From: an uncultured Gemmatimonadales bacterium
Lineage (GTDB): Bacteria; Gemmatimonadota; Gemmatimonadetes; Gemmatimonadales; Gemmatimonadaceae
DNA: 64,000 bases
Assembly: GCA_963850905.1 (NCBI GenBank)
Contig: CAWKMU010000003.1
Location: forward strand, 800,001 to 864,000
Direction: 5' to 3'
Shown here in pieces: positions 1 to 58,587 of the stretch. Each line of letters begins with the position of its first letter. Within the stretch, counting starts at the first letter, position 1. The position numbers and the translations under genes were made by a program. The notes below the pieces were generated by a model. It was not told where the DNA came from and searched no databases. It saw only the letters and a program-made list of their open reading frames with translations.

Positions 1-104
1 ACAACGCCCGACAGGAACGCGATACGCAGGGGCCACGCATGCGTCGCCCTCGGCTGCCGCACCCGCACATTCGATCTGGTTCGCACGGACTTCGATCCAA
101 ACAT
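1..104 (-). CDS. 5' part of a probable secreted/membrane protein running off the left edge
   Basis: GAGG RBS 8 nt before ATG at 104; reads MFGSKSVRTRSNVRVRQPRATHAWPLRIAFLSGV (basic n-region, then the start of a hydrophobic stretch); open to the window edge. Confidence 0.45.
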   Translation of the reverse strand, partial: MFGSKSVRTRSNVRVRQPRATHAWPLRIAFLSGV

Positions 105-334
105 CACACCATCCTCTTGCTGGCACCGGGGAAGGCCTCCCCGGTCGGGTACATCCGCATCAAGCGTCCCAAATAATACGTCGCGTGCAGGTCGTCGCTA
201 AAGCTGACACACGTTCGAGATGCGACAGGGCGAAGCCACCCACGCATTGATTCGCCCTCGCGACCCCGGGCCGTAAGTGCCCCACCGGTAAATGAACGGG
301 CCGGCGATCCGTTTTATGACAGACGTGCCAACTC

Positions 335-505
335 AACTGCGGGGCCAGGGGTTGGGGGGTCAGGGACCAGGAACAAATCGAAGGGCCAGTGGCTGCGCAC
401 CGCGACCGACCTTGGACCGGTAGGGGCGACGCAGTGCGTCGCCCGTCGTTGTCGTTGCGGTTGTCGTTCCCTGACCCCTGACGCCCGACCGCTGACCCCG
501 CCGTT
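335..505 (+). repeat. Composite heptamer-arm/GTAG-REP element, full copy
   Basis: AACTGCGGGG...CCCCGCCGTT ends; GGGGTCA-like and TGACCCC arms; core GTAGGGGCGACGCAGTGCGTCGCCC at 420-444. Confidence 0.9.
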
Positions 506-539
506 TGCTTTCCTGTCCTCCCCTCTTTCCTGTCCTCCC

Positions 540-1475
540 CTATTGATGCGCCAGCGCCGGCATGATCGACTGTACGGAGCTCAATCGCTCACCGAGCGCG
601 GCCGGCACCACCTGGCACGCCGCCACCGCCGCGGGTCTCGCATACCGCCGCAGCGCCTCGCGGGCGGGCCCGAGCACCAGGTCGCCCAGTACGACACCGA
701 GCGAGCCAAGCACGACAAGCTGGGGATTCAACACATCGACGAGCGTGGCCATCCCGGACCCCAACCACCGCGCGGACTCCGTGACCACCTCGACCGCGTC
801 AGGGTCGCCCGCCAGCGCCGCATCCACGATCGTGCGGATCTCGGGGGTGGTCGGCCAGCGCGCCGGGAACATGCGGTGCGCCAGCAGCGTCAGTCCCCGG
901 CCCGACGCGTACTCCTCCCACCCGCCGCCTGCCTTCACACGAGCGTCGTCCGGGGGAGCGACACGTAGCGTCGCCAGCTCACCCGCAGTCTCGCTCGCCC
1001 CCCGCAGGATCTTCCCGTGCACGATGATCCCGGCACCCATCCCGGTACCGTAAACCAGGAAAATCATGTGCTCGAGGCCCGCCCGGATGCGCCCAGCCCC
1101 AAACCAGAACTCGGCCAGCGCCCCCGCCTTGGCATCGTGGTCGAGATACACGGGCAGCCCCGGGAACCGGGCCTCGACCGCGTCCTTGAGTCTCAGATTA
1201 TGCCAGCCCGGGAGGTTGGGCGGATTGATGATCACCCCCTCGATTGCCCGAAGCGGTCCCGGCGAGACGATACTGATCGCCTTGGGCGTCCGACCCGCCG
1301 CACGGGCCGTCTGCAGCGTCTCATCGATCAACCCAGCAAGCGCGGGAAATGTGTCCGCGAACGGGCGCGCCCCCTCCGTCGGGTGGCTCACCCGCTGCAA
1401 GGTGTCGCCCGTCACCGTCGATTCTACGATCGCAGTCTTTGTCCCGCCGATGTCGACGCCAATGATCGTGTCCAT
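540..1475 (-). CDS. ROK family sugar kinase (glucokinase-like)
   Basis: N-terminal GVDIGGTK ATP-binding motif, DAKAGALAE, GTGMGAGII, GELA; no N-terminal HTH; lacks the Cys-rich Zn motif. Confidence 0.9.
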   Translation of the reverse strand: MDTIIGVDIGGTKTAIVESTVTGDTLQRVSHPTEGARPFADTFPALAGLIDETLQTARAAGRTPKAISIVSPGPLRAIEGVIINPPNLPGWHNLRLKDAVEARFPGLPVYLDHDAKAGALAEFWFGAGRIRAGLEHMIFLVYGTGMGAGIIVHGKILRGASETAGELATLRVAPPDDARVKAGGGWEEYASGRGLTLLAHRMFPARWPTTPEIRTIVDAALAGDPDAVEVVTESARWLGSGMATLVDVLNPQLVVLGSLGVVLGDLVLGPAREALRRYARPAAVAACQVVPAALGERLSSVQSIMPALAHQ

Positions 1476-1590
1476 AAATGATCGTCGATTGACTGTGGGA
1501 GCTGGCCGATTCGACGCCGTTCGTGGTGCCGTGGGCCGCGCAGGCGGCGTGGTGCCGCCCCTCTAAAGGCGAGCGGAGACCACGACGAAG

Positions 1591-4500
1591 CTAACGACGA
1601 CGGGTTGCGAACGGGCGCACGACACGGCGCTGGTTGGTGCGTACCGCGACAATCCCGGTCACGACACCCAGGAGGATCAGGACGCACCACGCGACGACGG
1701 TCTGCGTGGTGGGTCCCGGGCTGCGGAGGGGAGGGCGCGCGAGCGGATCGCCAACGACCGTAAACGCCGCCCAGTCTGCAGTTCGCACACCGCGCGCGAT
1801 CGCGTCGCGCTTCGCGGACTCGAGCGCGTCCCCCACCGGGAGACCGCGGGCCATCGCGGCGTAGAACGCGGCCACGATCGGCACAATCGCCCGGTCGCCC
1901 ACTCGCCACTGCGTCGCCACGACCGAGCGCGCTCCGGCAGCGAGCAGAGGCACGGTCAGCCCCTGCACCCCATCGCCGTCGATCACGACCCCGCCCGCGG
2001 TGCGGCACCCCGACAACACCACCAGATCGGCGTCGAGGCGCAGTGACGCCAGTTGCATCGGCGTCACGAAGCCGGATTCTCCACTCCCCGCCGCGAGCAC
2101 CAACGCGGTCCGCGCCACACTCCGCTCATCGACGAGCGCGTGAGTCGCGACATGAATCACGCGATACCCATCGAGTGGCGCATGCAGCAGGTACGCGGCG
2201 CTCGCCGCCTCTCGCAACCGGACGTCGGCGGACGGCGCGTACCGGGCCACGAGCCGCGCCTCCTCCGCGGACGCGCTGAGGCGCTCGAGGCCACCGTTCG
2301 AATCGGCCACGTCGCGATACGGATTGACCGATGTGCGCTCGGCACCCCCCGGCAGCACTGGAAACGCGGGATCCCCCAGCGCGAGCAGTCGTGGCGGCCG
2401 CCGATCCCCGCCGGCCGGGTGCGGTCGCCGCCAGAGAGCTCGCAGTACGGCGGCCGACGGAGCGATCGTGATCGCATACTTCGCCGCCAGCGGTTCTCCA
2501 TCCGAGGTGCGGAGCGCGTCGAAGGGAACACGATAGATCGGGCCGTCGGGCACGATGATGAGATGCGTCACGTCGGGTCCGAGCTCGCGCAGGGCGACAC
2601 CCAGAAGCGATCGGCCGATCGTGGTCGACAGCGCGACTGCATCATCGCCGCCCTCGAGCAACGCCACGAACCGCTCGATCGGGCCCAACAACGAGTCCGC
2701 ACTGGGAGCCGTGTACGCCTGCAACACCGCAGAACGCAGCCCAAGCGGCGACCGGACCGGAGACTGCGCGATGACGAACACGGTGGTGGGTGCACCATAG
2801 GCACCGGTGACGAATTCCACGAAGGCCGTATGGCGATCCGGCAGCACGGCCGCCACCGAGTCCGCCTCACCCTGTTCGCCAGTGGCGCGCGCGGCAACGT
2901 CCCCGCTCCGGGTCAGGCTGCCCGGCGGCTTCGCTGCCGCGTCCGACGACGTGTCCACCGCCGCGTCGCGCAGCGCGGCGAGGCGGACCAGCCGATTCGC
3001 CAGATCGCGCGCGCGACGTCGCTCGGCCAGCGCAAACGCGACCGACGGACGCTGCGCCGCCAGCACGGCAAGCACCGTCGCGGTCGCGGCGTCGCGGTCG
3101 TTCGCTTCGGTCGCTCCAACCTGAAAGACGTACGGCCGCAGCGCGCGGTCGGTGAGCGTGCCGCGCCAGGCGTCGAGCTCGTCCTCCGCGGCCGTCATCT
3201 CGAGATCCGTTCGGTCCAAGAGACCTTGGCGCGCTTCGGTCTCCGCCAGAAATGCCCGCGCGGCATATCGCATGACATGCTCCGCGGTATCGAGGGTCTG
3301 CAGGTACCGCGTGAAGGCCGCACCTGCAGCCGCTGGCCGATCCTCGGCGAGCGCGAGCCGGCCCCGATCGACATCCAGACTCGCGTACCACCGCGGTTGC
3401 CGACGCGCCCGAGATAACGCTTCCGCAGCCACCAGCGAGCGCTCGGCGGCCGGCAGATCGCCGGCACGAATATCGATCGCGACAAGGTCTCGCCACTCCT
3501 CGAACTCCGCCGGGTCCCCGATCTTGTGGTCGAAGTCGCGGGCTTGCTGCGCCAGATCGCGGGCGACCGACCACTGCCCCGCATCGACGGCGAGATCCGC
3601 GCGGTACGTGCGCACGAGCGCCCGCCCGCTCTCATCCTGCATCGTGTCGTACAGCGCCGTCGCGCGATCGAGGTAGGTCCCCGCACTCACGAGATCGTTG
3701 AGCAGGAGCGCCACGGACGCGAGGCCGACATTCGCAGACGCGAGCGCGTACAGATTGTGCGATGCATCCGCCTCGGCTTGCGCGGCGAGCACGTATTCCT
3801 TGTACGGCCCGATGTCGCCGCGGTTGTGGAAAATGTCTCCGTGGCGCATCAGCGTCTCGGCCAGCGTTGCGCGGTCGTGCACCCGACGCTCGATCCGCTC
3901 GACCGTGGTTAACACGACCGCGCTCGAGTCGTACGCAGCGCTCAACTCGAGGCCAAGCGCGAGGGCGCGTAGCGCACGCGCCTCCTCGCGCGGTTCACCG
4001 GCGCGGTGCGCGAGCACCGCGGCCGCCCGCGCGCGCGTGGCTGCGTCCGGATGGGACAGCACGGTGGCAAAGAGCGCCCGGCGCACGGCGATGGCAGCCT
4101 CGAGGTCGCTCACGTGGGGAGGGATCACGCGCGCCGCGGTATCGAGCAACGCGTTGCCGATGGAGATCCCGAGCTGCGCCGCGCGATTGACCGATCTCCC
4201 GACGAGCGCCTCGCTCTCCGCTGTGCGATCCGGGATCGAGCGAGCCATGACTCGGGCACGGACAAACGCACTGTCCGCGCGGGCCTGCAATCCCCGGGCG
4301 TCATACGACCAGCCGAGGCCCAACGCCGCGTAGACCGATACGGCATCGGCACCCGAGACACCCGCCTGGCGCGCGCTCGATGCGACTGGCATCAGCGCCG
4401 TCAGCGCCGCGTCGGCGTCATCGTATCGGTAGGTGAACCGCGCGATGGTCGCCAGGCCGAGTGCCGAGAGTCGGTCGCCCGGGTCTGCCGCGACCGCCTT

Positions 4501-4638: not shown

Positions 4639-4658
4639 GCAGGGAACTTAGGTGACCT

Positions 4659-4815
4659 GGGCCGGGACCAGGGGTCCGTGGGGCTCGGGTCGGGGAACAA
4701 ATCATAAAGCCGACCGCGCCCCGCGGCTGCCCCCGGACCGGTAGGGGCGACGCATTGCGTCGCCCGTCGTTGTCGCGGCGGGGGTTGCCGTTCCCCGAGC
4801 CCTGGCCCCCACCCC
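4659..4815 (+). repeat. Composite heptamer-arm/GTAG-REP element, diverged copy
   Basis: GGGAACAAATC, core GTAGGGGCGACGCATTGCGTCGCCC at 4741-4765, GTCGTTGTCG..GTTCCC right part; ends approximate. Confidence 0.85.
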
Positions 4816-6087: not shown

Positions 6088-6263
6088 CGCGCCTCCGGCT
6101 AGATAGTGGATCTCGGCTAGCGGGGCGCGGCCCGGCGGCGCGTGGGCGAACTAGGCCGCCGAGCTCATGGTCTTCTTGTCCGACCTAGGCCGCTTCTGTC
6201 CATCTCGGCCCCGCTCTTCGGGCCGAGAGGTGGACGATCGAGAAAACGAGTCGTAACTCGTTG

Positions 6264-6554: not shown

Positions 6555-6725
6555 AGCGGGATCCCGGAATGGGGTGGTGAAGGAAGTGTGAAAAAGGTTG
6601 GTCAACCCTGGCCGATTGGCAACCCCCTTGTCGCTCGGGGACTCGCGCGCAAGTTCCCTTGCCATGAACGCGACAGCGGACCGCGCGCGCCACGTCCGTC
6701 CGACGCCCACTGGCGGCGCCCGGGC

Positions 6726-8162: not shown

Positions 8163-8357
8163 AACGGCGGGGCAGGGGTCAGGGGCAGGGGTCAGGGGTC
8201 AGGGAACAATCGAAAGGCCGATCGCAGCGCACCGCGACCGGCCTCGGACCGGTAGGGGCGACGCATTGCGTCGCCCGTTGTTGCGTTGGGGTTGTCGTTC
8301 CCTGACCCCTGACCCTTATCCGCCGTTCCCCCGCCCCTGACCCCTAATCCCGCCGTT
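8163..8357 (+). repeat. Composite heptamer-arm/GTAG-REP element, full copy
   Basis: AACGGCGGGG, (GGGGTCA)n, inner hairpin, core 8252-8276, (TGACCCC)n, duplicated CGCCGTT end; between convergent genes. Confidence 0.92.
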
Positions 8358-9657: not shown

Positions 9658-9898
9658 ACCGCACGATCCAGCCGTAGACCGGTAGGGGCGACGCCCTGCG
9701 TCGCCGTGCCGCGACCGCACGATCTAGCCATGGACCGGTAGGGGCGACGCCTCGCGTCGCCCTCCGTACACGATCACGACATTCGGGGAAAACCACGATC
9801 CGGCCCTCGGCGGGTAGGGGCGACGCATGCGTCGCCCGTCTTGGGCGTACCGCGATCGTTGAGAGGTTAGACCGGTAGGGCGACCCACCGCGCGCCCG
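9658..9898 (+). repeat. Cluster of four same-orientation GTAG-REP cores
   Basis: Cores start at 9682, 9738, 9814 and 9875; the first two share the flank ACCGCACGATCYAGCCRTRGACCG. Confidence 0.88.
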
Positions 9899-12429: not shown

Positions 12430-12563
12430 AACGGCGGAGTCAGGACCCGGGACCAAATCGCCAGCCTGTCGCAAGCTCGCCGTTGACGCCGACATGTAGG
12501 GGCGGGCTTCAGCCCGCCCCTTTGTCGTTGCGGTTGTCGTCCCCTATCGCCTAATCCGCAGTT
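12430..12563 (+). repeat. Composite element with variant REP core
   Basis: AACGGCGG...CCGCAGTT ends; core GTAGGGGCGGGCTTCAGCCCGCCC at 12496-12519; family right part TTGTCGTTGCGGTTGTCGT. Confidence 0.85.
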
Positions 12564-16863: not shown

Positions 16864-17017
16864 ACGGCGGGATCGGGGATCAGGGGCCAGGGAACACATC
16901 GAGAAGACGGTCACGGTGCACTGCGACCGGCCTTGGACCGGTAGGGGCGACGCATTGCGTCGCCCGTTGTTGTCGTTGCGGTTGCCGTGCCTGACCCCTG
17001 ACCCTGACCCCGCAGTT
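16863..17017 (+). repeat. Composite heptamer-arm/GTAG-REP element, full copy overlapping the iorB stop
   Basis: TG|AACGGCGGG ... core 16941-16965 ... CCCCGCAGTT. Confidence 0.92.
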
Positions 17018-17245: not shown

Positions 17246-17265
17246 GTAGGGGCGCATGCGTCGCC
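17246..17265 (+). repeat. Degenerate GTAG-REP core
   Basis: GTAGGGGCGCATGCGTCGCC (core with internal deletion). Confidence 0.6.
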
Positions 17266-19146: not shown

Positions 19147-19314
19147 GGCCGGGATAGGGGTCAGGATCAGGGAACAAACACAGAGGCCGGTCACGATTCA
19201 CAGTGGCCGGCATTTGGACCGGTAGGGGCGACGCATTGCGTCGCCCGTCCTTGTCGTTGCGAGTTGTCGTTCCTGACCCCTGACCCCTGACCCCGGACCC
19301 CCGATCCCGCCGTT
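19147..19314 (+). repeat. Composite heptamer-arm/GTAG-REP element, full copy
   Basis: Core 19222-19246; inner hairpin GCCGGTCAC..GTGGCCGGC; (TGACCCC)3; between convergent genes. Confidence 0.9.
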
Positions 19315-21027: not shown

Positions 21028-21242
21028 GAAGGGTCACGGATTTGGGTCAGGGAACAAATCGTAAAGCCGACCGCGCGCACCGTGGCTGGCCTTGGGCCGG
21101 TAGGGGCGACGCTGTGCGTCGCCCGTTGTTGTCGCGGCGGTTGGCAGTTGCGTGTTGTTTCCTTAAGCCCTGACCTCGCCGTTAAGCCTTACTTTGTGTG
21201 TACTTCCCTGATCCCTAGCCCCTGACAATTGACCCCGCCGTT
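21028..21242 (+). repeat. Composite heptamer-arm/GTAG-REP element with duplicated right end
   Basis: GGGAACAAATCG, core 21100-21124, two CGCCGTT ends (21183 and 21242). Confidence 0.85.
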
Positions 21243-29378: not shown

Positions 29379-30614
29379 GTGAATCCAGGCTTTGCTCCGC
29401 GGAGCGCCGGACGCGCCGCGTTTGCGTTCATTTTCGTCACCGTCGCCCTCGACATGTTGGCGCTCGGCATCATCGTGCCGGTCCTGCCGACGCTCATCGT
29501 GTCGTTCGAGGGCGGATCGATCGCGCGGGCGTCGACCATCACCGGATGGTTCGGCTTTGCCTGGGCGCTGATGCAGTTCCTCTGCTCACCGACGATCGGC
29601 ACGCTCTCCGATCGCTTTGGGCGCCGACCGGTGATCCTGCTGTCGAACCTTGGTCTCGGGCTCGACTACCTCGTGATGGCCGTCGCGCCGTCGGTCGGCT
29701 GGCTGTTTCTCGGCCGAGTGCTGTCGGGCATCACCTCATCGAGCTACCCGACGGCAACAGCGTATGTGGCTGACGTGACCCCAGCCGACCAGCGCGCGGC
29801 GCGTTTCGGCATGCTCGGCGCAGCGTTCGGCCTCGGGTTCGTCATCGGGCCGGCCGTGGGCGGACTCCTCGGCGCTATCGATCTCCGCCTGCCGTTCTGG
29901 GTCGCCGCCGCGTTGAGTCTGGCGAATTTCGCCTACGGGTTTTTCATTCTGCCCGAGTCGCTCCCCCGAGAGCGGCGGGGCCGCGTGGAATGGCGCATGG
30001 CCCACCCGTTCGGAGCGATCGCGTTTCTCCGGTCGCGCGCCGCACTCCTGGGACTCGGCGTCGCCGCATTTCTCTATTACGTCGCCCACGAAGTGTTGCC
30101 GAGTCTCTACGTGCTGTACACCGAGTACCGATACACCTGGAACGAACGACAGATCGGGATTTCGCTCGCGGCCATCGGCGTGTGCACCACGATCGTGTCC
30201 GCCTTCCTCGTCGGCCCGGTCGTCGCGCGACTCGGCGAACGTCGCTCACTCGCGTTGGGATATGCGTGCATGACGACCGCCTTCTCCGTGTTCGCCATCG
30301 CGGCCGCGGGGAACGCGTTCCTCTGCGGGATCCCGTTCGTCTCGCTGAGTGGCATCGCCAGCCCATCGCTGCAGGCACTCGCAACCCGTCACGTCGACAG
30401 CACCGAGCAAGGCCAACTCCAAGGCGCGCTGAGCAGCCTGCGGGGCGTCGGCATGATGATCGGACCGCTGCTCTTCACCCAGACCTTCACCTGGTCCCTG
30501 CAACTCCCCCACCCATTCCCCGCCGCCCCCATGTGGCTCGCCGCCACATGCGTGGGTATTGCCGGATTTGCGGGATGGCTGGCGACCGCGCCACGGGCAG
30601 CGCAAGCGGTGTAG
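29379..30614 (+). CDS. TCR/Tet family MFS efflux transporter
   Basis: 12 TM; motif A GTLSDRFGRRP; LGRVLSG; antiporter motif GFVIGPAVGG. Confidence 0.9.
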   Translation: MNPGFAPRSAGRAAFAFIFVTVALDMLALGIIVPVLPTLIVSFEGGSIARASTITGWFGFAWALMQFLCSPTIGTLSDRFGRRPVILLSNLGLGLDYLVMAVAPSVGWLFLGRVLSGITSSSYPTATAYVADVTPADQRAARFGMLGAAFGLGFVIGPAVGGLLGAIDLRLPFWVAAALSLANFAYGFFILPESLPRERRGRVEWRMAHPFGAIAFLRSRAALLGLGVAAFLYYVAHEVLPSLYVLYTEYRYTWNERQIGISLAAIGVCTTIVSAFLVGPVVARLGERRSLALGYACMTTAFSVFAIAAAGNAFLCGIPFVSLSGIASPSLQALATRHVDSTEQGQLQGALSSLRGVGMMIGPLLFTQTFTWSLQLPHPFPAAPMWLAATCVGIAGFAGWLATAPRAAQAV

Positions 30615-30621
30615 CAAAAAC

Positions 30622-30787
30622 AACGGCGGGGTTAGGGGTCAGGGGTCAGGGGAACAGACCGAAAGGTCTGGTTCACTGTGCACAATGCCCGCCTTGGACC
30701 GGTAGGGGCGACGCATTGCGTCGCCCGTCGTTGTCGTTGCGGTTGTCGTTCCCTGACCCCTGACCCCTGACCCCTGACCCCGCCGTT
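30622..30787 (+). repeat. Composite heptamer-arm/GTAG-REP element, full copy
   Basis: AACGGCGGGG, core 30702-30726, (TGACCCC)4, GCCGTT; between convergent genes. Confidence 0.92.
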
Positions 30788-30797
30788 TTAGTCCCTA

Positions 30798-32531
30798 CTA
30801 CCTCACCAACTCCACCCGCCGGTTGCGCGCGCGACCAACCAGCGTCGAGTTCGAATCGACAGGCGATGCCGAGCCAAATCCGTTCGACGTCAGGCGCTTG
30901 GTCGCGATCTGAAAGCCGCTGATCAGCGTGTCCCGGACCGCTGCCGCACGACGCTTGGACAGCGCGAGGTTGTAGACATCGCCCCCGATGCTGTCAGTGT
31001 AGCCGTTGATCGCGAGCGTCCAGTCGGGATTCTTGTGCATGAGATCTGCGATCTCATGCAGCACAGGACCGGACTGCTTCTTGATCTTGGCCTGTGCGAA
31101 ATCGAAGTAGATCCCGTACACGAGGACCTTCCGGTCGCGCTTCAAAGCCTGCTCCATGCGCTGCTCGCTGGCGGCTGCACCTGCCCCACCACCGCCGCCG
31201 CTACCACTGCCACCGCCACCGCCACCGCCGCTACCGCCACTGCCGCCACCACCCGCGGCGCCGCCACTCCCTGCAGCGGCCGATCCGCCCGCGCCTGCGC
31301 CCGCGCCACCGCCTCCACCACCACCACCACCACCACCGCCGCCGCCACCGCCGCCCGAGCCGTTGCCCCCGGCCCCGCCGGCAGCGCCGCCACCAGCAGC
31401 CAGCCCAAGATCGCCACCACCTCCTCCACCGCCACCTCCTCCACCTGCACTGCCAGCGATTTCGACATCGGCATCAGCGATATGCACGACCTGGAGTTGT
31501 GTCGTATCGAGTTGCAGTATGCCTTTGACCGTCCGGAACCCGGTCTTGTTCGTGCCACGCAGCACCGAATCGGGCACCCCATCGAGCGTGGTGTCCTTCT
31601 GCAAATCCATCGTCCTCCAGGTGAGGACAATCGGATCTTTCGGATCATCGAGGATGAAGTACTCGCAGTCGACGTGGCGGATCTCGGCGCCGTTTCGCGC
31701 GATGGTTGGCGTTCTGATCGTATCGCACTGCGCATGCACGGCGGGCAGCACGACGGGCTGGTCATTCAAAATGACCGGAACGCCAACAGGATGCGGCTCG
31801 ACACGACGGATCCAGTGTCCGCGGTCCTCGAGGTCCCCAAAGTCCGGCATCATGACCCGCACATAGACCCTGTGTCCGGTCTTGATGGCGGCGAGGAGCC
31901 GTGCGGAGAAGGTGATGCCCGTCGTACCCGTATCGGTCTCGGGCGGCTCCGTCGTCGGTCTGGAAAGGAAGACTGGCGCGAAGCCACATGCGGTATCCTG
32001 ATCCGCTCGGAGGACGTTCCGTCGCGAGGCGGTCGGCGTCGGGACGGTTTTCTTGGCCAAGACGTCGTACTTGGGCACCATCGCCGACAGGTCGAGCGAC
32101 ACCAGATTCCCGGTGAGGTCAGTCACCGTCTTGACGGACTCGTAGTCCCCATCCGGCGTCGCGATGGCCGTTATCACGTTCAATCCGACACGCAATGGCA
32201 CGGTGTCGCCGACTGATGCGCGGCCGGGCGTCCACGGCTGCAGATTGGGCACGCTGTCAGGCTCAGTTTCATCGGCGAGGCACGCGTGCTGTATCGCAGA
32301 GACGCCGTCTGCTTCTGTCGCGCTTGGCAGGTCCTTGAATCCACTGTTGGACGATCCTCCCCCCGGTGCTGCCGCCGGCAGTGCGGCGAGCTGGGCGTCA
32401 GCACTCTGCTGTGGCGTCTTTCCCTGCTTGTGGCCACCGCACGCCAACATCGCCGAAAGGAGGATGTACGCGCAGGCGCCGCGGATGCGGAGATTCGTTC
32501 GGTCGGCGGTCGACTTCATCTGGCAGCACAT
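30798..32531 (-). CDS. OmpA-family lipoprotein with long poly-Gly linker
   Basis: Lipobox MLAC; C-terminal IYFDF, GYTD, YNLALSKRRAAAV, RARNRRVE; Gly/Ala/Ser run of about 90 aa. Confidence 0.85.
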   Translation of the reverse strand: MCCQMKSTADRTNLRIRGACAYILLSAMLACGGHKQGKTPQQSADAQLAALPAAAPGGGSSNSGFKDLPSATEADGVSAIQHACLADETEPDSVPNLQPWTPGRASVGDTVPLRVGLNVITAIATPDGDYESVKTVTDLTGNLVSLDLSAMVPKYDVLAKKTVPTPTASRRNVLRADQDTACGFAPVFLSRPTTEPPETDTGTTGITFSARLLAAIKTGHRVYVRVMMPDFGDLEDRGHWIRRVEPHPVGVPVILNDQPVVLPAVHAQCDTIRTPTIARNGAEIRHVDCEYFILDDPKDPIVLTWRTMDLQKDTTLDGVPDSVLRGTNKTGFRTVKGILQLDTTQLQVVHIADADVEIAGSAGGGGGGGGGGGDLGLAAGGGAAGGAGGNGSGGGGGGGGGGGGGGGGGAGAGAGGSAAAGSGGAAGGGGSGGSGGGGGGGSGSGGGGGAGAAASEQRMEQALKRDRKVLVYGIYFDFAQAKIKKQSGPVLHEIADLMHKNPDWTLAINGYTDSIGGDVYNLALSKRRAAAVRDTLISGFQIATKRLTSNGFGSASPVDSNSTLVGRARNRRVELVR

Positions 32532-40878: not shown

Positions 40879-40985
40879 CTGCGGGGGTCAGGGGTCAGGG
40901 GTCAGGGAACAACACAGTTGGCAACTCGTAGTGCGCTCCGACTAGCCTATCGTTTTGTTCCCTGACCCCAGATCCCTGACCCCTG
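40877..40985 (+). repeat. Heptamer-arm element without REP core, overlapping the MOSC stop
   Basis: T|AACTGCGGGG, (GGGGTCA)3, GGGAACAA...TTGTTCCC, TGACCCC; unique interior. Confidence 0.85.
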
Positions 40986-43148: not shown

Positions 43149-43329
43149 GTAGGGGCGACGCAATGCGTCGCCCTCTGGCTCCGTAAGGCCGGGTTCGATA
43201 GCCGCCGCCTGTCCATGTAATCCGGGGTTACTCGCTCCGTAGGGGCGACGCATGCGTCGCCCTTATTTCCGTAGGGCCGGGATCGGCGTCACCCCCTGCT
43301 TGTCCATGCAATCGGTGGTCATTCGCTCC
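43149..43329 (+). repeat. Two diverged ~90-nt tandem units, each starting with a GTAG-REP
   Basis: Cores at 43149 and 43239, each followed by TCCGTARGGCCGGG...TGTCCATGYAATC...TCGCTCC. Confidence 0.85.
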
Positions 43330-44243: not shown

Positions 44244-44371
44244 AACGGCCGATTTGGGGTCTGGGGTACCCGCAACAAACCCAAAGGGCCAGTCACGGTG
44301 CGCTGTGACTGGCCCTCGCGTTTTGTCGCAGTCACCCCAGACCCCAGACCCCAAACCCCAGACCCCCGCTG
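44244..44371 (+). repeat. Element with CCCCAGA-type arms and inner hairpin, no REP core
   Basis: AACGG..TTTGGGGTCTGGGG; AGGGCCAGTCAC-GGTGCGCT-GTGACTGGCCCT; (CCCCARA)4. Confidence 0.85.
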
Positions 44372-47776: not shown

Positions 47777-47943
47777 AACTGCGGGGCCAGGGGTGAGGGG
47801 CCAGGGACCCAATCGAAGGGTCAGTGACGGTGCACTGAGACCGGCCTCGGACCGGTAGGGGCGACGCATTGCGTCGCCCGTCGTTGCCGTGGCGTTTGGT
47901 CGTTGTTCTCGACCCCTGGTCCCTGATCTCTGACCCCACCGTT
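47777..47943 (+). repeat. Composite heptamer-arm/GTAG-REP element, full copy
   Basis: AACTGCGGGG, core 47855-47879, TGACCCCACCGTT. Confidence 0.9.
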
Positions 47944-51293: not shown

Positions 51294-52388
51294 ATGCGGG
51301 TGAAGGAGCCCAACGCGCATGGCCTGACGGCAGCACATGTGACGCCGGCGCAACACTTCGGTGAGGCGTCGACGGCCCCACATGTCGCGGCCTCAGCAAC
51401 CGACCGGCCTTTGTCGCTGCCGGAATTCCCCCAGGCTGTCTATCGAGGTAATGCGAGCTCGGTCGGCGTGGCATTCGGGATGGCAGTGGGGCCCGGCGAA
51501 GGACGCATGGCGCTCGACGCACTGGAAAGCGTCGCGACGTTCTTCCCCGACGCGAGCCGGTGGGTCCTCGACGATTGCACGTTCGATGGCACCTACGATC
51601 TCCTGGCGCGCTGGATCGCGACGAACGGCGGCCATCTGCTCCGCAACGCCATCCCGCACGGCTACCGCGGCATCGCCAGCTCGTTCTACGCGCTGCTCGC
51701 GGCGATCGCGCGCGAAGAGCCGAGCCTCGACATGGCGATCAAGATCGATCCCGACACGTGCCTGCTCGGCGGCGACCTGCTCGAGCGCATCCGCCGGCGA
51801 TTCACGGATCACGGGCCGGGCATCGTCGGCGCCTACCGGGTCGGCGCTGGGGGACGCCCCCGTGTCTTCGGCCACATCAGGCGGAACATGCTCGTCGATC
51901 TCTTGTTGCCGGTCGGGCCCCACAAGACTTGGCGCTCGCTGCGCGTCGGGTTGCCGTACTGGGCGCGCTTCCTGCCGAGCGCGAGACGCAACGGATATGT
52001 CTTCGGTGAGCACGTGCTCGGCGCACTCGCCGCCATCCACGGCGACACACTCCGCGCCCTCGCCAGGTCCGGGTTCCTCGCGGTGCCGCCGCGGTTCCGA
52101 GCGCTCACGGTCCAGATGGACGTGCTCCTCGGCCTCGGCGTGCGGTCGGTCGGGCACAGCCTGATCGATCTCGACAGCGCGCCCCCTGCGCCGGCGACTG
52201 TGTGGCTTCAGTTTCTTCCGCCGGTCCCCGTCAGTGCCGAATCGTTGGTCGAGCGCGGCATCCTCGCGGTGCATCCCGTGAAGGGCACGCCCGATGGCGA
52301 TGCGATGCGCGCCGTTTTCCGCCGCCACCGACACCCACGCCAGGATCGCCTGGCACCCACACCGCCCGCACCGGTCACGCTGACGTAG
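51294..52388 (+). CDS. Putative GT-A fold glycosyltransferase-like protein
   Basis: LESVATFFP, VLDDCTFDGTYD, KIDPD (DxD), AVHPVK; start uncertain; TAG stop lies inside a REP. Confidence 0.55.
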   Translation: MRVKEPNAHGLTAAHVTPAQHFGEASTAPHVAASATDRPLSLPEFPQAVYRGNASSVGVAFGMAVGPGEGRMALDALESVATFFPDASRWVLDDCTFDGTYDLLARWIATNGGHLLRNAIPHGYRGIASSFYALLAAIAREEPSLDMAIKIDPDTCLLGGDLLERIRRRFTDHGPGIVGAYRVGAGGRPRVFGHIRRNMLVDLLLPVGPHKTWRSLRVGLPYWARFLPSARRNGYVFGEHVLGALAAIHGDTLRALARSGFLAVPPRFRALTVQMDVLLGLGVRSVGHSLIDLDSAPPAPATVWLQFLPPVPVSAESLVERGILAVHPVKGTPDGDAMRAVFRRHRHPRQDRLAPTPPAPVTLT

Positions 52389-52474
52389 GGGCGACGCCAT
52401 GCGTCGCCCATGATTACGGCCGTCCGCGCTGTCTGGCCATACGCGGGTAGGGGCGGCGCAATGCGTCGCGGCCC
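52385..52474 (+). repeat. Two same-orientation GTAG-REP cores
   Basis: GTAGGGGCGACGCCATGCGTCGCCC at 52385-52409; degenerate core from 52447. Confidence 0.85.
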
Positions 52475-52650
52475 GCACCACATTCCTCCGCCCGGACAGG
52501 TTGACGCATTTCCGTCGCCCGGTCACCGGCACGTGATTGGCCTCTCGTTGACGCCGAGCGAGCTCAGCGCTAGTAGTTGAGCCCGTACGCGGATGTTTGC
52601 GCAAACGATTGCGAGACCACGATGGGCGGGGTTCGTCGAGAGACGGCACT

Positions 52651-55584
52651 ATGAAGCTGATTCGAATCACCTGTCTGATCGCGCTGACCGGGCGCGTCAC
52701 GGTCGTCCACGCGCAAGGGGCGACGGCGCATGAGCCATCCGCCCTGCGCGTCATGGGGCGAGTGATCGACGCAACAGCCACCGCACCGATCGCCGACGCA
52801 ACGATCAGCGTCAGCGGAACCACGATCGCGGCACACACGAATCGCGACGGTCAATTCGCGATCGCCGTGCCAACGGATGCCACGTCGTTCGTCGTTCGCC
52901 GCTCGGGGTTTCTCACGGCCCAGGTCCCAATCACTACTGGTAAAACCGATTACTCCATCATCCTCACCAAGGACGTCCTGCATTTCCAAACCGACGCGGT
53001 GAGTGGACTCGTGACGACCGTGTCATCCCAGAACGCCGCTGTTGCCATTGGCGGTGTAGTGACGCAGGACACGATACAACCTCCCCCGCCGCGTCTCGAA
53101 ACATTGATCGAAGGTGCGGTCCCGGGCGCGACGATCGAGTCCAGCACGAGCGATGCCCCTGGCGAGGGGATGCAGTTGCAGCTCCGGGGGCCTACGACCG
53201 TCTACGATGCCGCCTCCCCGCTCTACGTGATGGATGGTGTGTTGCTGATCAATCAGCTGGGCGCGAACCCGCTGGCCAACGGCGGCTTCCCAGAGGGCAA
53301 CGGGATCAATCGGATCGCCGACATCGACCCCGGTGACATCGCGCGCATCGAGATACTCAAGGGCGCGGCAGCCACGTCCATCTACGGCTCGAAGGCGGCC
53401 GCCGGCGCCGTGATCATCACGACCAAACGAGGGACGCACAGCGAACCGCACTGGGAGATCGACGGCCAAATTGGCCATTACTCCCTCGCGAATGAGGTTC
53501 CTGTTCGGCAGTTCCCGACGCTCCAGAGCGCGCAGGCGTGGTATCTCGGGGACGTGACACACGACTCGACCGCTCAGGCCACTGCCGCGGATGACGCGCT
53601 CATTCGCGGCATGTATGCCGGTCCGGAGAACTATCAGAGGCAGCTTTTCGGCAACACGCGGATGGCCTATCTGGGGAGCGTGAGTGCCAGCGGGATGCTG
53701 GGCGGCACACAGTACTATGTGTCCGCACTCTCGAAGTACGACAATGGCGTGTTGCTCAACACCGGCGATGACAAGCAGTCGGTGCGGGGCAACATCACGC
53801 AACACATCGGGTCCCGGTTCTTTGCCACGGCGAATCTGAATTACGTGAGCGACGTGACGCGCCAGGGATACGCGGCCGCGAACCCGTACGAGGTGATGAC
53901 GTACACGCCTGGGTTCGTGGCCCTCGACCAGCCGGATCCGAACGGCGCCTGGCCGCACAACCCCTTCGGCCCGTCAAACCCGTTTGCAGACGCGCTCGGG
54001 ATCTCGGCGCCGCTCAACACCAGCCGATTCATCGCTGGGGGTTCCATCGGGCTGACCGTTTGGCGCTCGACACACCAGAGTGTCGAGATCCAGGCCACGG
54101 GCGGCGCCGATCGTGCCGACCTGCACGACCGGCTGTTGGTGCCACCGAATCTAGAGTCGCAAGAGAGTCAAACGCTGCCCGGTCTGTCAGTCACGAACGT
54201 CGGCCGAATCAGCTACTCGAACTACGCTGGGCATCTCACGCATCATTACGCTGGCAACTGGATCGATGCGACCACGACAGTCGGATACGGTACGGACCGT
54301 GAGGCAAACACCAACCCGGTGACGATCGAGCAGAACCTGCTGACCGGGATCAATAGTCCGACGACTGGCACGGTGGAGAGCGAATTCTTCCAGGAGACGC
54401 ACACGCTTCAGCACGCCTACTACGCGCAGGAGCAGCTCATCACCCTCGCGTCGAAGCTCGCGCTCACTGCCGGTGTGACTGCCGAAAATTCGACCTTGAA
54501 CGGCAATACGAAGGAGTTTTACCCGTACCCGCGCTATTCCGCGTCCTACCGCATTCCGCACCCGTTCGCGATTGCGGACGAAGTCAAGTTCCGCGTCGCC
54601 TACGGAACGTCCGGCAACCTGGCACCGTACGGCGCGACGTTCGCGCCATATCAGCCGACGACTATCAGCGGTAGCAATGGCGTCTACCCCGGAGCGAGCG
54701 AGACACCGCAGTTCAAGCCGGAGGTCGAGCGCGAGACGGAGCTCGGTTTCGACATGCCCATGTTCCACGCTCGCGCACAGCTATCCGCCACCGTGTACCA
54801 GAAGCGGATTAGCGATCTCGTAGTCGAGTCGGCCGTCAACCAGCAGTTCGGGCCCGTCTTCTTCAACGGCGGCGCATTCAGCAACTACGGGGCCGAGCTC
54901 GAGGTACAGGCAACGCCGGTCCAGATGGCGAATGGCCTCACGTGGACCTCGACAACCACCTTCTATCGCAACTACAGCGTCGTCGACGCGCTGGCGACCG
55001 GCCAGTTCTTTACGGGACCGAACTATGGCCTGGGCGACAATCTCGTCGTCGTCGGTCGCTCGCTCACGGAGCTGGTCAATCCGAATCGAGCGGCGGCCAA
55101 TGGCTTGCCGCTGCAGGTGGGAGACATCATGCCAAGCTACGAGATGTCTCTTGGCAACGCCGTCAGCTTTCACAATGTCCGCATCTTCGCCCTCGCTGAC
55201 TGGAGCCGCGGCGGGACTGCCACTGACCTACTGGGGTACTATTTCGCTTTCAGCACCCTCACCGCGGACTCGGCGCTGGCGGCTCGACAACAAACGTCGC
55301 TCGAAGCGGGAGGGATGCCATTCACGGAGTCAGCGACATACTTCACCTTACGCCAGGTGGTCCTCACCTACTCGCTGCCGACTCGAGTCGTCGCTCGCGT
55401 GGGGTTCGGCCGGTTGACCAGCGTCCGCCTCAACCTCAGTGCCTACGACCTCTGGTCGACCTTCAGCTACAAGGGTCTGGATCCACAGGCAGGCGAGTTT
55501 GGCAACCTCTCCGCCGTCGGCTTCGAGCCGACACCGTACCCGCCGGCCCGCAGCTACTACCTCGGCGTCGCTGTCGGTATTTAA
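52651..55584 (+). CDS. SusC/RagA-type TonB-dependent outer membrane receptor
   Basis: N-terminal carboxypeptidase-regulatory-like domain; PLYVMDGV; DIARIEILKGAAATSIYGSKAAAGAVIITTKRG plug; YKGLDP and YPPARSY near the C-terminus. Confidence 0.9.
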   Translation: MKLIRITCLIALTGRVTVVHAQGATAHEPSALRVMGRVIDATATAPIADATISVSGTTIAAHTNRDGQFAIAVPTDATSFVVRRSGFLTAQVPITTGKTDYSIILTKDVLHFQTDAVSGLVTTVSSQNAAVAIGGVVTQDTIQPPPPRLETLIEGAVPGATIESSTSDAPGEGMQLQLRGPTTVYDAASPLYVMDGVLLINQLGANPLANGGFPEGNGINRIADIDPGDIARIEILKGAAATSIYGSKAAAGAVIITTKRGTHSEPHWEIDGQIGHYSLANEVPVRQFPTLQSAQAWYLGDVTHDSTAQATAADDALIRGMYAGPENYQRQLFGNTRMAYLGSVSASGMLGGTQYYVSALSKYDNGVLLNTGDDKQSVRGNITQHIGSRFFATANLNYVSDVTRQGYAAANPYEVMTYTPGFVALDQPDPNGAWPHNPFGPSNPFADALGISAPLNTSRFIAGGSIGLTVWRSTHQSVEIQATGGADRADLHDRLLVPPNLESQESQTLPGLSVTNVGRISYSNYAGHLTHHYAGNWIDATTTVGYGTDREANTNPVTIEQNLLTGINSPTTGTVESEFFQETHTLQHAYYAQEQLITLASKLALTAGVTAENSTLNGNTKEFYPYPRYSASYRIPHPFAIADEVKFRVAYGTSGNLAPYGATFAPYQPTTISGSNGVYPGASETPQFKPEVERETELGFDMPMFHARAQLSATVYQKRISDLVVESAVNQQFGPVFFNGGAFSNYGAELEVQATPVQMANGLTWTSTTTFYRNYSVVDALATGQFFTGPNYGLGDNLVVVGRSLTELVNPNRAAANGLPLQVGDIMPSYEMSLGNAVSFHNVRIFALADWSRGGTATDLLGYYFAFSTLTADSALAARQQTSLEAGGMPFTESATYFTLRQVVLTYSLPTRVVARVGFGRLTSVRLNLSAYDLWSTFSYKGLDPQAGEFGNLSAVGFEPTPYPPARSYYLGVAVGI

Positions 55585-55676
55585 GCCCGTCGCCGGTGCA
55601 AACGGACCGCGCGCCGGGGTCGCCGTCCGTGCCAGACGCACCACTTGGGACACCCACATGAACGATGCTCCGGCGG

Positions 55677-55700
55677 GTAGGGGCGACGCATGCGTCGCCC
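55677..55700 (+). repeat. Solitary GTAG-REP core
   Basis: GTAGGGGCGACGCATGCGTCGCCC. Confidence 0.85.
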
Positions 55701-55821
55701 TCCATCGCCGCCCGCACCACGTCCGCGTCGGGGCATCCGCAAGTCTTTGCCAAGTACTGTACGTCGCGGTAGCTTCTCCACTCCGTAGCCCGATTAGTCC
55801 TCCCCTGTAGACAGAAGTTCT

Positions 55822-56517
55822 ATGCAGACCTCTCCGACATCGCGCCACGGCCGTGGCCTCGCGCAGCCGGTGGCGAGGCTGTCCCGCCGATGGCTTCGCT
55901 GGATGGGCTCGATCGCAGGGCTGGCACTCGTGCTCGCGGCGACCCACCAGGCCGCGCGTGCGCAAGCCCCGACGAGCCGATACGACACGGCGGACGTGCA
56001 GTTCATGCAAGGCATGATCGCACACCATGCGCAGGCGCTGGCGATGGTCGCACTGATCCCCACACATACGAGCCGCCCCGAGCTGCAGATGATCGGTGAG
56101 CGCATCAAGATCTCTCAGACGGACGAGATCGCGCTCATGCAGCGCTGGCTGACCGACCATCATGATGTCGTGCCGACAGTGGATGCCGACAACGTCGCAC
56201 ACATGCCCGGAGCCGATATGCCCGGCATGCACATGTCAGGCGGGACGATGATGATGCCGGGCATGTTGACGCCGGAGCAGATGAGGCAGCTCGCCAATGC
56301 CAAGGACACGCAGTTCGACACGCTGTTTCTCGTGGGCATGATCCACCATCACGAAGGCGCGCTCGCGATGGTCAAGTCGCTCCTCGGCACGGCGGGCGCG
56401 GCGCAAGGACCCGACGTCTTCACCTTTGCGGCGGATGCGGACGCCGATCAGCGCGCAGAGATCAAACGCATGCAGGCCGTGCTGGCCACTATCAATACCC
56501 AAGGCCACAAGTCCTGA
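55822..56517 (+). CDS. DUF305 domain secreted protein
   Basis: DVQFMQGMIAHHAQA, MPGMLT, FL.GMIHHHEGA, QRAEIKRM; Met-rich loop. Confidence 0.9.
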   Translation: MQTSPTSRHGRGLAQPVARLSRRWLRWMGSIAGLALVLAATHQAARAQAPTSRYDTADVQFMQGMIAHHAQALAMVALIPTHTSRPELQMIGERIKISQTDEIALMQRWLTDHHDVVPTVDADNVAHMPGADMPGMHMSGGTMMMPGMLTPEQMRQLANAKDTQFDTLFLVGMIHHHEGALAMVKSLLGTAGAAQGPDVFTFAADADADQRAEIKRMQAVLATINTQGHKS

Positions 56518-56612
56518 CCGCTCCCGGTGCGGAGCATGTTGTACCGGTACGTGACAGGTCGAACGACATCACTAGCACTTCCACCACGAGATTCGAGAGG
56601 AGAGGCAGATCA

Positions 56613-58421
56613 ATGACTTGGCGTTCGCGCACACGATCGACGGGAGCGGTGATGCGACCGCTCGGCGTCGCCATTGGCGCGCTCACGTGCGCCGCAGTAG
56701 CCGGCGCGCAAATGGCAAACTCCAGTGACCCGCGGGTCGGCCTTGCGGGTGGCCACTGGATCGAAGCGGGTTCGGCCATCAGCAACCTGGACATGGTTGC
56801 ACACGTCGATCGGCCGACCGGATTCTCGAACCCGAGCAACCTGGGTGACTGGACCGTTATCAACTCCGATCTGGCCTTTAGTGGGAACTACATCTTCCAG
56901 GGCAACTTTCACGGGATTCAGATCTGGGACGTGTCGGATATCGGACATCCCACGCTGAAGACGACGGTCGTCTGCCCGGGCGGCCAGGGTGATCCGTCGA
57001 TCTATGGCAATTTGATGTTCGTGTCCGTCGAAACCGAGGACGGGCGCGTCGACTGCGGGACGCAGGGCGTCAAGGATTCAGTGAGCCCGGACCGATTCCG
57101 CGGTGTTCGGATTTTCGACATCAGCGACATCACGCACCCCAAGCAAATAGCGGCCGTGCAAACCTGTCGGGGCTCGCACACCCACACGCTCCTCCCCGAC
57201 CCGGTCGACAAGAACGTGCTCTACGTGTACGTGCAGGGGACCGCACCGGTCCGGCCGGGCGCCGAGCTCGCCGGATGCTCGGGCGGCACGGCGGAGCAGA
57301 ACCCGAACACGGCGCGATTCCGAATCGAAGTCATCAAGGTGCCCCTGAACGCACCGCAGGACGCCAAGGTCGTGGCCGAGCCACGCATCTTCGCCGATGC
57401 CAAGACCGGTGCGATCAATGGTCTGAACAAGGGGAGCGAGGGCGACTCGCTCAAAGGCGTGCAGGAGCAGGGGCTCACAGACCAGTGCCACGACATCACA
57501 GTGTATCCCGCGACCGGCCTGGCTGCCGGGGCATGCTCGGGCAACGGCATTTTGCTCGACATTCACAATCCTGCGGCGCCGAAGCGCATCGCGGAGGTCA
57601 GCGATCCGAACTTCGCGTACTTCCACTCGGCCACCTTCAGCAACGATGGCAAGGAAGTGATCTTCACGGACGAGTGGGGCGGTGGCGTTGCACCTCGCTG
57701 CCGGGCGAACGACCCGATCAAGTGGGGCGGTGATGCGATCTTCAGCGTGATGCCCGACAGGACGCTGAAGCTCGAAGGGTACTACAAGATGCCCGCGCCG
57801 CAGACCGCGACCGAGAATTGCGTCGCGCACAACGGATCGTTGATCCCGGTCCCGGGCCGCAACATCGCGGTGCAGGCGTGGTATCAGGGCGGGCTCTCCG
57901 TGTTCGACTTCACCGACCCGGCGCACGCGAAGGAGATCGCGTATTTCGACCGCGGCCCACTCGACGTCAACACGCTGTACCTCGCGGGCTACTGGTCGGC
58001 GTACTGGTACAATGGCCACATCTACGGCTCCGAGATCGCGCGTGGTCTCGACATCTTCGCGCTCAAGCCGAGCCAGTTCCTGTCGCAGAATGAGATCGAT
58101 GCGGCTGGGTTGGTGAAGTTCACGACGTCCAATCCGTCTGACCAGCAGAAGCTGATGTGGCCAGCGGCGTTCGTGGTCTCGCGTGCGTACCTGGATCAGC
58201 TCGAGCGCATGCAGGGCCTGTCCGGCGATCGGATCTCGTCGATCCGGGGTGATCTCGACAAAGCCGAGCAGATGCAGGGCGCCCAGCAAAAGAGCGCACT
58301 GGAGAAGCTCGCCAAGCGCGTCGACGGCGACGCGAAGGGCGCGCAGGACGCTGGGCGTGTGCGAGATCTCGCAGCGTCGATCAAGGGCCTGGCTGGCAAG
58401 GGTACCGCAAGCGGTGGATGA
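56613..58421 (+). CDS. LVIVD-repeat secreted beta-propeller protein
   Basis: NSDLAF, CPGGQGD, CRGSHTHT, CHDITV, FTDEWGGG, NCVAHNG, EIAYFDRGP. Confidence 0.85.
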   Translation: MTWRSRTRSTGAVMRPLGVAIGALTCAAVAGAQMANSSDPRVGLAGGHWIEAGSAISNLDMVAHVDRPTGFSNPSNLGDWTVINSDLAFSGNYIFQGNFHGIQIWDVSDIGHPTLKTTVVCPGGQGDPSIYGNLMFVSVETEDGRVDCGTQGVKDSVSPDRFRGVRIFDISDITHPKQIAAVQTCRGSHTHTLLPDPVDKNVLYVYVQGTAPVRPGAELAGCSGGTAEQNPNTARFRIEVIKVPLNAPQDAKVVAEPRIFADAKTGAINGLNKGSEGDSLKGVQEQGLTDQCHDITVYPATGLAAGACSGNGILLDIHNPAAPKRIAEVSDPNFAYFHSATFSNDGKEVIFTDEWGGGVAPRCRANDPIKWGGDAIFSVMPDRTLKLEGYYKMPAPQTATENCVAHNGSLIPVPGRNIAVQAWYQGGLSVFDFTDPAHAKEIAYFDRGPLDVNTLYLAGYWSAYWYNGHIYGSEIARGLDIFALKPSQFLSQNEIDAAGLVKFTTSNPSDQQKLMWPAAFVVSRAYLDQLERMQGLSGDRISSIRGDLDKAEQMQGAQQKSALEKLAKRVDGDAKGAQDAGRVRDLAASIKGLAGKGTASGG

Positions 58422-58431
58422 GTAGGACCTG

Positions 58432-58587
58432 AACGGCGGGATCAGGGGTCAGGAACAAATTCAAAGGCCGGTCACGGTGCACAGTGACCGGCCTTTGGAC
58501 CGGTAGGGGCGACGCATTGCGTCGCCCGTTGTTGTCGTTGCGGTTGTCGTTCGCCGACCCCAAACCCCAAACCCCAGACCCGCAGTT
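58432..58587 (+). repeat. Composite heptamer-arm/GTAG-REP element, full copy overlapping the RCC1-gene stop
   Basis: Perfect inner hairpin AAAGGCCGGTCAC..GTGACCGGCCTTT; core 58503-58527; left arm GGGGTCA type, right arm CCCCAAA/CCCCAGA type. Confidence 0.92.

What the first reader, a model, noticed from the sequence alone, without database searches (positions are those of the whole stretch)
27..58527. Every REP core and composite element points the same way, regardless of gene orientation
Seen: about 21 GTAG cores at 16 separate loci (27, 420, 4741, 8252, 9682-9875, 12496, 16941, 17246, 19222, 21100, 30702, 43149/43239, 47855, 52385/52447, 55677, 58503) all read GTAG on the + strand (GCAG in the degenerate copy at 27). 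I found no reverse-complement core (...GTCGCCCCTAC). They lie between -/- genes, +/+ genes and convergent genes alike, and core-less copies (39900, 40877, 44244, 63046) keep the same asymmetry. With random orientation, 16 of 16 has probability 2 x 0.5^16, about 3e-5. Established: IS200/IS605 HUH transposases act on lagging-strand ssDNA and show replication-linked orientation bias; Chi and KOPS sites are also replichore-polarised. Inference: the element is inserted or selected relative to replication fork direction, not transcription.
Basis: partly seen in the sequence, partly recalled or inferred. Interest (0 to 1): 0.85.

Follow-up and report, generated by a model that had tools for sequence, protein, structure and literature searches.

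The report
Strand-polarised REP repeats in Gemmatimonadales
Short mobile hairpin repeats (REPs) in this bacterium and its relatives sit almost all on one DNA strand of each chromosome arm, likely because their transposase delivers them at the replication fork on the strand opposite to the one related insertion sequences use, and their orientation flips about 1 Mb short of the predicted terminus.

Summary
Confirmed, and larger than the window. In this Gemmatimonadales chromosome, single GTAG-REP loci read + in 143 of 150 cases on the left arm, whatever the flanking genes. They are mostly - just right of oriC, then + again (33 of 34) from about 2.3 Mb to dif at 3.365 Mb. Singlets found in only one of two sister species share the polarity (47 of 47). 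Congeners repeat it, two of them with a different REP family. Two RAYT-like genes flanked by cognate REPs lie on this arm. The orientation switch matches oriC but not dif. GC4 skew also reverses before dif, whereas gene orientation, KOPS-like words and substitution flux do not. Best reading: fork-coupled, strand-specific RAYT deposition, with the left fork often overshooting dif; both steps are inferred. Six literature searches found no report of REP strand polarity.

The parts
420..443 (+). REP family A core (A1, GGACCG-preceded) in a composite with heptamer arms; between -/- genes
4741..4764 (+). REP A1 core; between -/- genes
8252..8275 (+). REP A1 core in composite; convergent genes; composite absent at the orthologous G004 site
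9682..9836 (+). Tandem array of three family-A cores (a degenerate fourth at 9875); between -/- genes
12496..12519 (+). REP family B singlet; convergent genes
16941..16964 (+). REP A1 core in composite; between +/+ genes
19222..19245 (+). REP A1 core in composite; convergent genes
21100..21123 (+). REP A1 core in composite; between +/+ genes; composite absent at the orthologous G004 site
30611..30798 (+). Full composite: inverted heptamer arms (30611-30652, 30757-30798), inner hairpin and A1 core (30702-30725); the interior is inverted in place at the same site in G004
   Evidence: ssDNA fold -64.9 kcal/mol, z -9.45
43149..43261 (+). Two family-A cores in tandem; between +/+ genes
47855..47878 (+). 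REP A1 core in composite; between -/- genes
52385..52470 (+). Two family-A cores in tandem; between +/+ genes
55677..55699 (+). REP A2 core (CGGCGG-preceded); between +/+ genes
58503..58526 (+). REP A1 core in composite; convergent genes
26..49 (+). Degenerate family-A core (GCAG in place of GTAG)
17246..17265 (+). Degenerate family-A core with a shortened stem
40884..40983 (.). Core-less composite (heptamer arms plus hairpin); weak '-' call, not evidence of polarity
44255..44346 (.). Core-less composite; orientation ambiguous
63052..63158 (.). Core-less composite; '+' call

Best explanation
These are GTAG-tagged REP singlets that are polarised by chromosome arm, with GTAG on the G-poor strand, likely because their RAYT (TnpA-REP) deposits new copies at the replication fork, predicted to do so by joining the cut REP strand into the newly made lagging strand. 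Shown: the polarity, its need for the GTAG core, its independence of gene strand, its presence in lineage-specific sites, the switch near oriC, and RAYT-like genes flanked by cognate REPs (C3:704 kb for family A, 875 kb for family B). Inferred: RAYT is the agent; the acceptor is a free 3'-OH of an Okazaki fragment (TnpA-REP's tyrosine-linked strand is resolved by an added attacking oligonucleotide in vitro, PMC8266576); and the + zone at 2.3-3.365 Mb arises because the fork leaving oriC on the dnaA-downstream side often runs past dif in this lineage.
For: Strict singlets: left arm 143+/7- (p 4e-34); 0.98-2.30 Mb 11+/21-; 2.30-3.365 Mb 33+/1-. Left-arm contexts: ++ 32+/1-, -- 37+/2-, +- 53+/3-, -+ 11+/1-. 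Controls: core-less copies unpolarised; B doublets in 0.99-2.3 Mb have either arm on + (11 v 10 of 24, 3 unclear); background GTAG/CTAC in the 2.3-3.365 Mb zone is 1456/2482, against the REP direction. Lineage-specific left-arm singlets: G000-only 36 of 36 and G004-only 11 of 11 in the majority orientation. Congeners: G002 proximal right arm 41 of 53 (p 8e-5); G001 left arm 14 of 19; family C in G005 14 of 14 and G008 10 of 10 right of dnaA; contig C2 of G008 8 of 8 and of G005 7 of 7 on the G-poor strand. RAYT-like ORFs carry the HUH motif and a C-terminal Tyr, NF047646 E 2e-21 and 1e-18. For overshoot: coding-corrected GC4 skew falls from +0.044 (1.2-1.4 Mb) through zero (about 2.55 Mb) to -0.060 (3.2-3.4 Mb), with no step at dif; G004 repeats the + zone (16 of 18); G008's skew stays positive for about 0.3 Mb past its dif (3 windows).
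Against: C/T versus G/A substitution flux between G000 and G004 at 2.3-3.365 Mb is +0.062 +/- 0.031, nearer the right arm (+0.119 +/- 0.024) than the left (-0.161 +/- 0.028). Gene strand, KOPS-like GGGNAGGG and the rRNA operon all switch or point toward dif, and PMC11237797 (section 9) concludes that replication ends at the gene-strand switch. G002 shows no + zone (5+/7-), its held left-arm ends are 7+/7-, and its 21 unlisted cores are only 12 forward / 9 reverse by subtraction. The proximal right arm is weakly polarised (G000 p 0.11; G004 9+/11-). Both RAYT ORFs fall below the NF047646 cut-off (76.4 and 67.4 v 80 bits). No common cleavage or target motif was evident by eye at filled/empty junctions. 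No experiment was run.
Confidence: 0.45

Rival explanations
1. Sink model: RAYT cuts REPs whose GTAG strand is exposed on the lagging-strand template (IS608-like chemistry), so those copies are excised or flipped and the unexposed orientation accumulates.
For: Gives the observed sign from known chemistry (TnpA-REP acts on REP, not iREP; PMC8266576 passages). Singlet:doublet ratio is 150:23 on the left arm v 32:32 on the proximal right arm. One doublet in G000 is a singlet in G004.
Against: 0 of 47 lineage-specific singlets are in the exposed orientation. The ratio comes mostly from extra singlets: doublet-type loci are 18 in 0.97 Mb v 32 in 1.32 Mb. The one precise flip leaves G004's copy in the minority orientation. 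It still needs leftward forks in the 2.3-3.365 Mb zone.
Confidence: 0.22
2. Orientation is inherited from nearby donors by same-strand local copying, so polarity domains are self-propagating patches seeded from REPtrons, and the 2.3 Mb boundary is where two waves met rather than a fork-meeting point.
For: RAYT genes lie on the dense arm in G000, G001 and G004. A1 flank similarity falls with distance (Spearman -0.29, Mantel p 0.0005). Arm density is lineage-specific: G002 is rich on the other arm. It needs no head-on replication of the rRNA block.
Against: A2, A0 and B singlets show no distance effect, and the A1 effect is confounded by subfamily. The sign relative to skew is the same in G000, G001, G002, G004, G005 and G008 and in three REP families, which founder chance would not give. 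It does not explain the skew reversal before dif.
Confidence: 0.15
3. Selection: the singlets are polar signals for a host translocase or nuclease, like Chi or KOPS.
For: Strong polarity; independence of gene strand; switch near oriC.
Against: No switch at dif, where KOPS-like words do switch. High turnover: 36 G000-only v 17 shared single-orientation loci. The exact A core was found in only 4 of 10 genus genomes. Different stems in different congeners.
Confidence: 0.08
4. Transcription-driven bias, a recent inversion of the 2.3-3.365 Mb block, or an assembly artefact.
For: The second switch coincides with the start of the co-oriented gene block (fraction of coding bases on + rises from 0.51 to 0.77-0.98 at 2.30 Mb).
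Against: No dependence on gene strand on the left arm, and -- and -+ contexts inside the block are 9 of 9 +. G004 is collinear in 18 of 20 sampled windows, and G002 has the same layout. G431, another genus, has the same dnaA/block orientation.
Confidence: 0.07

Closest known systems
REP/REPIN-RAYT (TnpA-REP) systems, short perfect-stem GTAG REPs (group 3 type; PMC8266576, PMC3333891, PMC3116915, PMC6006769)
   Same: GTAG 5' of a short perfect hairpin; hundreds of mostly intergenic copies; inverted doublets and tandem arrays; an HUH-Y1 gene flanked by its own REP type.
   Different: Singlets are the majority (217 strict singlet loci of 291), include lineage-specific sites and are strand-polarised, whereas PMC3116915 treats singlets as decayed remnants. 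Many sit inside composites with heptamer-repeat arms. No arm polarity appears in the passages read.
IS200/IS605 (IS608, ISDra2) replication-linked orientation bias (PMC5027513, PMC3971601)
   Same: HUH-Y1 enzyme family, ssDNA hairpin substrate, orientation tied to chromosome arm rather than to transcription.
   Different: Opposite sign: the recognised (GTAG) strand lies on the leading-strand template. The elements are non-autonomous. The second switch is about 1 Mb from dif.
KOPS / Chi polarised motifs (recalled, not read here)
   Same: Strand bias that reverses near oriC.
   Different: No reversal at dif; mobile, high-turnover, family-variable hairpins rather than fixed octamers.
Gemmatimonadota high-strand-bias block at ter (PMC11237797)
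   Same: The 2.3-3.45 Mb region is such a block: co-oriented genes, rRNA, and a strand switch near 3.35 Mb.
   Different: In the passages and section read, the paper counts repeats but not their orientation, and places termination at the gene-strand switch. Here REP polarity and GC4 skew reverse 0.8-1.1 Mb earlier.

Membership tests
REP (GTAG-tagged) | GTAG 0-2 nt 5' of a 7-20 bp GC-rich stem with a 2-5 nt loop | tested here: met
   8-10 bp stems, mostly 2-4 nt loops; definition from PMC6006769 passage
REP (GTAG-tagged) | High copy number, extragenic | tested here: met
   416 cores at 291 loci; 10 of 150 left-arm singlets fall inside ORFs of my own gene caller
REP/RAYT | Cognate HUH-Y1 RAYT gene flanked by the same REP type | tested here: met
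   C3:875 kb flanked by family B; C3:704 kb flanked by A1 arrays
REP/RAYT | NF047646 score above the curated cut-off | tested here: inconclusive
   Best family for both ORFs, but 76.4 and 67.4 bits v cut-off 80; IS200 model 27.8 and 22.5 bits
REP/RAYT | Strand-specific cleavage and strand transfer of single-stranded REP | not testable with these tools
   Needs biochemistry
REPIN (doublet as the replicative unit) | Most REPs occur as inverted doublets | tested here: not met
   Singlets:doublets 150:23 on the left arm; equal only on the proximal right arm, 32:32
IS200/IS605-type orientation bias | Active strand on the lagging-strand template | tested here: not met
   GTAG on the G-poor strand, which is the leading-strand template, in 143 of 150 left-arm loci
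KOPS/Chi-type polar motif | Polarity reverses at oriC and at dif | tested here: not met
   Reverses near oriC and at 1.95-2.34 Mb; dif is at 3.365 Mb

The most novel reading that the evidence does not exclude
RAYT transposases spread REP singlets by capturing Okazaki-fragment ends, which makes REP orientation a fossil record of fork direction; in this lineage that record shows lopsided replication, in which the fork leaving downstream of dnaA often passes dif and copies up to 1 Mb of core and rRNA genes head-on.
Probability: 0.2. Interest if true: 0.9.

Novelty: new variant of a known kind. Interest (0 to 1): 0.7.

Why it matters
How RAYTs move REPs in living cells is open: the papers read offer in vitro cleavage and models only. 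A 95% strand bias with a defined sign, opposite to IS608, absent from core-less copies and doublets, and repeated with different REP families, is a sharp constraint that a simple insertion assay can test. The switch 1 Mb short of dif also questions where replication ends in Gemmatimonadota, whose terminus region holds the core and rRNA genes.

Tried and rejected
Misassembly at 2.3 Mb: rejected by G004 and G002 synteny. C4 as a separate replicon: rejected; it carries tRNAs and tmRNA and its ends overlap both ends of C3. Second origin: the double Bac_DnaA-domain gene at 2.846 Mb sits in a GTPase/methyltransferase/TPR gene cluster (read by eye, not scanned against families), and an origin near the C3 end would make C4 minus, whereas it is 31+/1-. 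Loss of DciA as the cause of asymmetry: found in 8 of 9 congeners, with a partial match in G000; PMC11551766 seen as abstract only. Recent inversion of the block: G431 has the same relative orientation. Outside control: 17 unrelated genomes gave at most 3 matches each, so uninformative; of 32 chosen Gemmatimonadales genomes the richest outside the genus (G164, G128, G250) are fragmented or mixed and were not oriented. Read-depth test of the terminus: 6 runs listed, all contigs, share at most 0.20, so nothing was laid. Junction analysis gave no consistent target motif (by eye). L006 in G002 is an IS200 TnpA, not a RAYT. Earlier scan notes: none returned. Supplements of the papers were not read and could hold REP orientation data.
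Full report
OBSERVATION. GTAGGGGCG occurs 19 times on + and never on - in the window. A strict REP pattern gives 14 loci, all +, in -/- (4), +/+ (5) and convergent (5) contexts. The claim about core-less copies fails: a profile of their inner hairpin calls them 5+/4-/7 ambiguous in C3 0-0.98 Mb and 6+/7-/7 ambiguous in 0.98-2.3 Mb, while core-bearing composites in 0-0.98 Mb are 37 of 37 +.

HOST AND MAP. The window is G000:C3:800,001-864,000. The closest DnaA relatives (57-75% identity) are mostly labelled Gemmatimonadales or Gemmatimonadaceae. Three parS sites lie at 971.5 kb, dnaA (-) at 1.000 Mb and the cumulative skew minimum at 977 kb (parS motif recalled). One dif-like site lies at 3,365,188, single-copy in 10 of 10 genus genomes. 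Contig-end overlaps give a ring C3-C4-C3. G004 is collinear in 18 of 20 sampled windows; the other two had no collinear match. Genes were called with my own hexamer model, so contexts are approximate.

ANATOMY. There are 416 cores at 291 loci, in two families: A, and B with a different stem. They occur as singlets, same-strand arrays, inverted doublets, and composites whose heptamer-repeat arms fold into a long hairpin (-64.9 kcal/mol, z -9.45; the other strand -61). Each family has a RAYT-like gene flanked by its own REPs: B at C3:875 kb, 11 kb from the window, and A at 704 kb. Both match NF047646 best but fall under its cut-off.

GENOME-WIDE POLARITY. After setting aside doublets and loci with a detectable decayed partner, singlets are 143+/7- on the left arm, 11+/21- at 0.98-2.30 Mb and 33+/1- at 2.30-3.365 Mb. 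The filter missed some decayed B doublets that are visible by eye. A two-breakpoint fit on 193 single-orientation C3 loci puts the switches at 1.01-1.15 and 1.95-2.34 Mb: 156 of 163 + outside, 9 of 30 + inside. The zone boundary at 2.30 Mb is therefore post hoc. Flanking gene strand has no effect. B doublets have either arm on + (11 v 10 of 24). Density is 11.3 singlets per 100 kb on the ori-proximal left arm against 2.4 on the proximal right arm.

SIGN. On the left arm the fork moves leftward, so + is the leading-strand template and has the sequence of the new lagging strand. [quoted passage not shown]

ONGOING AND REPLICATED. Over 440 kb of G004's left arm (38 loci), singlets without a detected core in the other genome are 11 of 11 (G004) and 36 of 36 (G000) in the majority orientation. 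Shared singlets in G004 are 13 majority and 3 minority; 5 G004 loci and 7 G000 loci had no orthologous flanks. Some 'unique' sites may be decayed rather than empty, as seen at one site. The composite at window 30.6-30.8 kb is inverted in place in G004. G002 gives 41 of 53 on the proximal right arm and G001 14 of 19 on the left. G005 and G008, about 72% identical to G000 in sampled windows and inverted around oriC, carry another family (C): 14 of 14 and 10 of 10 singlets right of dnaA are on the G-poor strand, with almost none on the other arm, and their 0.7 Mb contigs are 7 of 7 and 8 of 8. These genomes are kin, not independent samples. The exact A core was found in 19 of 401 phylum genomes, often as full symmetric palindromes.

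THE ANOMALOUS ZONE. Gene strand, KOPS-like words and the rRNA operon put the terminus near dif. This is the high-strand-bias block of PMC11237797 (abstract, passages and discussion read). Yet REPs at 2.3-3.365 Mb keep the left-arm sign in G000 and in G004 (16 of 18, many sites shared). For leftward forks there: GC4 skew declines smoothly and reverses at about 2.55 Mb, and the right arm's amplitude is at most 0.044 against 0.10 on the left. In G008, where the block lies on the dnaA-downstream arm, two block windows have strong normal skew (+0.158, +0.135), and skew stays positive for about 0.3 Mb past dif. G090 switches skew and gene strand between 2.95 and 3.35 of 4.6 Mb (12 windows). Against: substitution flux in the zone is +0.062 +/- 0.031, closer to the right arm than to the left; G002 is 5+/7- there and shows no dense, polarised left arm in what is held; head-on replication of rRNA genes would be costly (established knowledge). 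Skew and flux together suggest a broad mixed termination zone. The 33:1 REP ratio then needs the left fork to deposit more copies than the right, which the densities show in G000 but not in G002. This step stays unresolved.

MECHANISM. Polarity that needs the GTAG core, ignores transcription, flips near oriC and holds for new copies points to RAYT acting at the fork (inference). Deposition into the nascent lagging strand explains the sign and the lack of young copies in the other orientation; the strand-transfer assay shows the tyrosine-linked strand being resolved by an added oligonucleotide (PMC8266576 passage). A purge of exposed copies gives the same sign but predicts young opposite copies, and 0 of 47 were seen. 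Local same-strand copying may add to the arm density (Mantel p 0.0005 for A1 only, confounded).

NOVELTY. REP/RAYT systems and IS200/IS605 orientation bias are known. Six searches found no report of arm-polarised REP singlets. Seen as passages: PMC3116915, PMC3971601, PMC6006769, PMC3333891, PMC5027513, PMC8266576, PMC3025954; as abstract only: PMC11551766; no supplements. The library lacks most subscription papers, and the 2013 survey of GTAG-tagged repeats by Di Nocera and colleagues is recalled, not read. Verdict: real, a new variant of a known kind, interest 0.7.

Noticed in passing
window 30611-30798; L135 (G004 C1 near 2,437,300): The composite's interior is precisely inverted between its heptamer arms in G004, with the same flanking sequence.
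   Followed up: partly
G008 C2 (L236-L239, L264-L266); G005 C2 (L243-L245): 0.7 Mb contigs with one-signed skew in 7 of 7 and 3 of 3 windows and poor synteny to G000: either part of an arm or a replicon copied in one direction; no end overlap was seen for G008.
   Followed up: partly
G090 C1:1,930,290; L247-L258: The dif-like match lies more than 1 Mb from where sampled skew and gene strand reverse (between 2.95 and 3.35 Mb).
   Followed up: partly
L109 (G000 C3 near 234 kb): ORFs that read like recF and gyrB (by eye) flank the DciA match and lie about 0.77 Mb from dnaA; several frames there look broken, possibly assembly indels.
   Followed up: no
L156:6058-8112 (G000 C3:2.846 Mb): 684-aa protein with two Bac_DnaA domains in a cluster with TPR, small-GTPase-like and methyltransferase-like ORFs; similar second matches occur in many family genomes.
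   Followed up: partly
G000 C3:243,122-243,779; L105: Tandem units of about 110 bp that carry a REP plus neighbouring host sequence: 4 cores in G000, 2 in G004.
   Followed up: no
G000 C3:3,195,717; L089 (G004 C1:14,861): The minority-orientation singlets of the anomalous zone in G000 and G004 lie on either side of the rRNA operon.
   Followed up: no
G000 C3:3,127,737-3,127,833: tRNA-SeC called by ARAGORN.
   Followed up: no
window 31159-31455: Low-complexity CCN-rich repeat stretch inside an ORF region.
   Followed up: no
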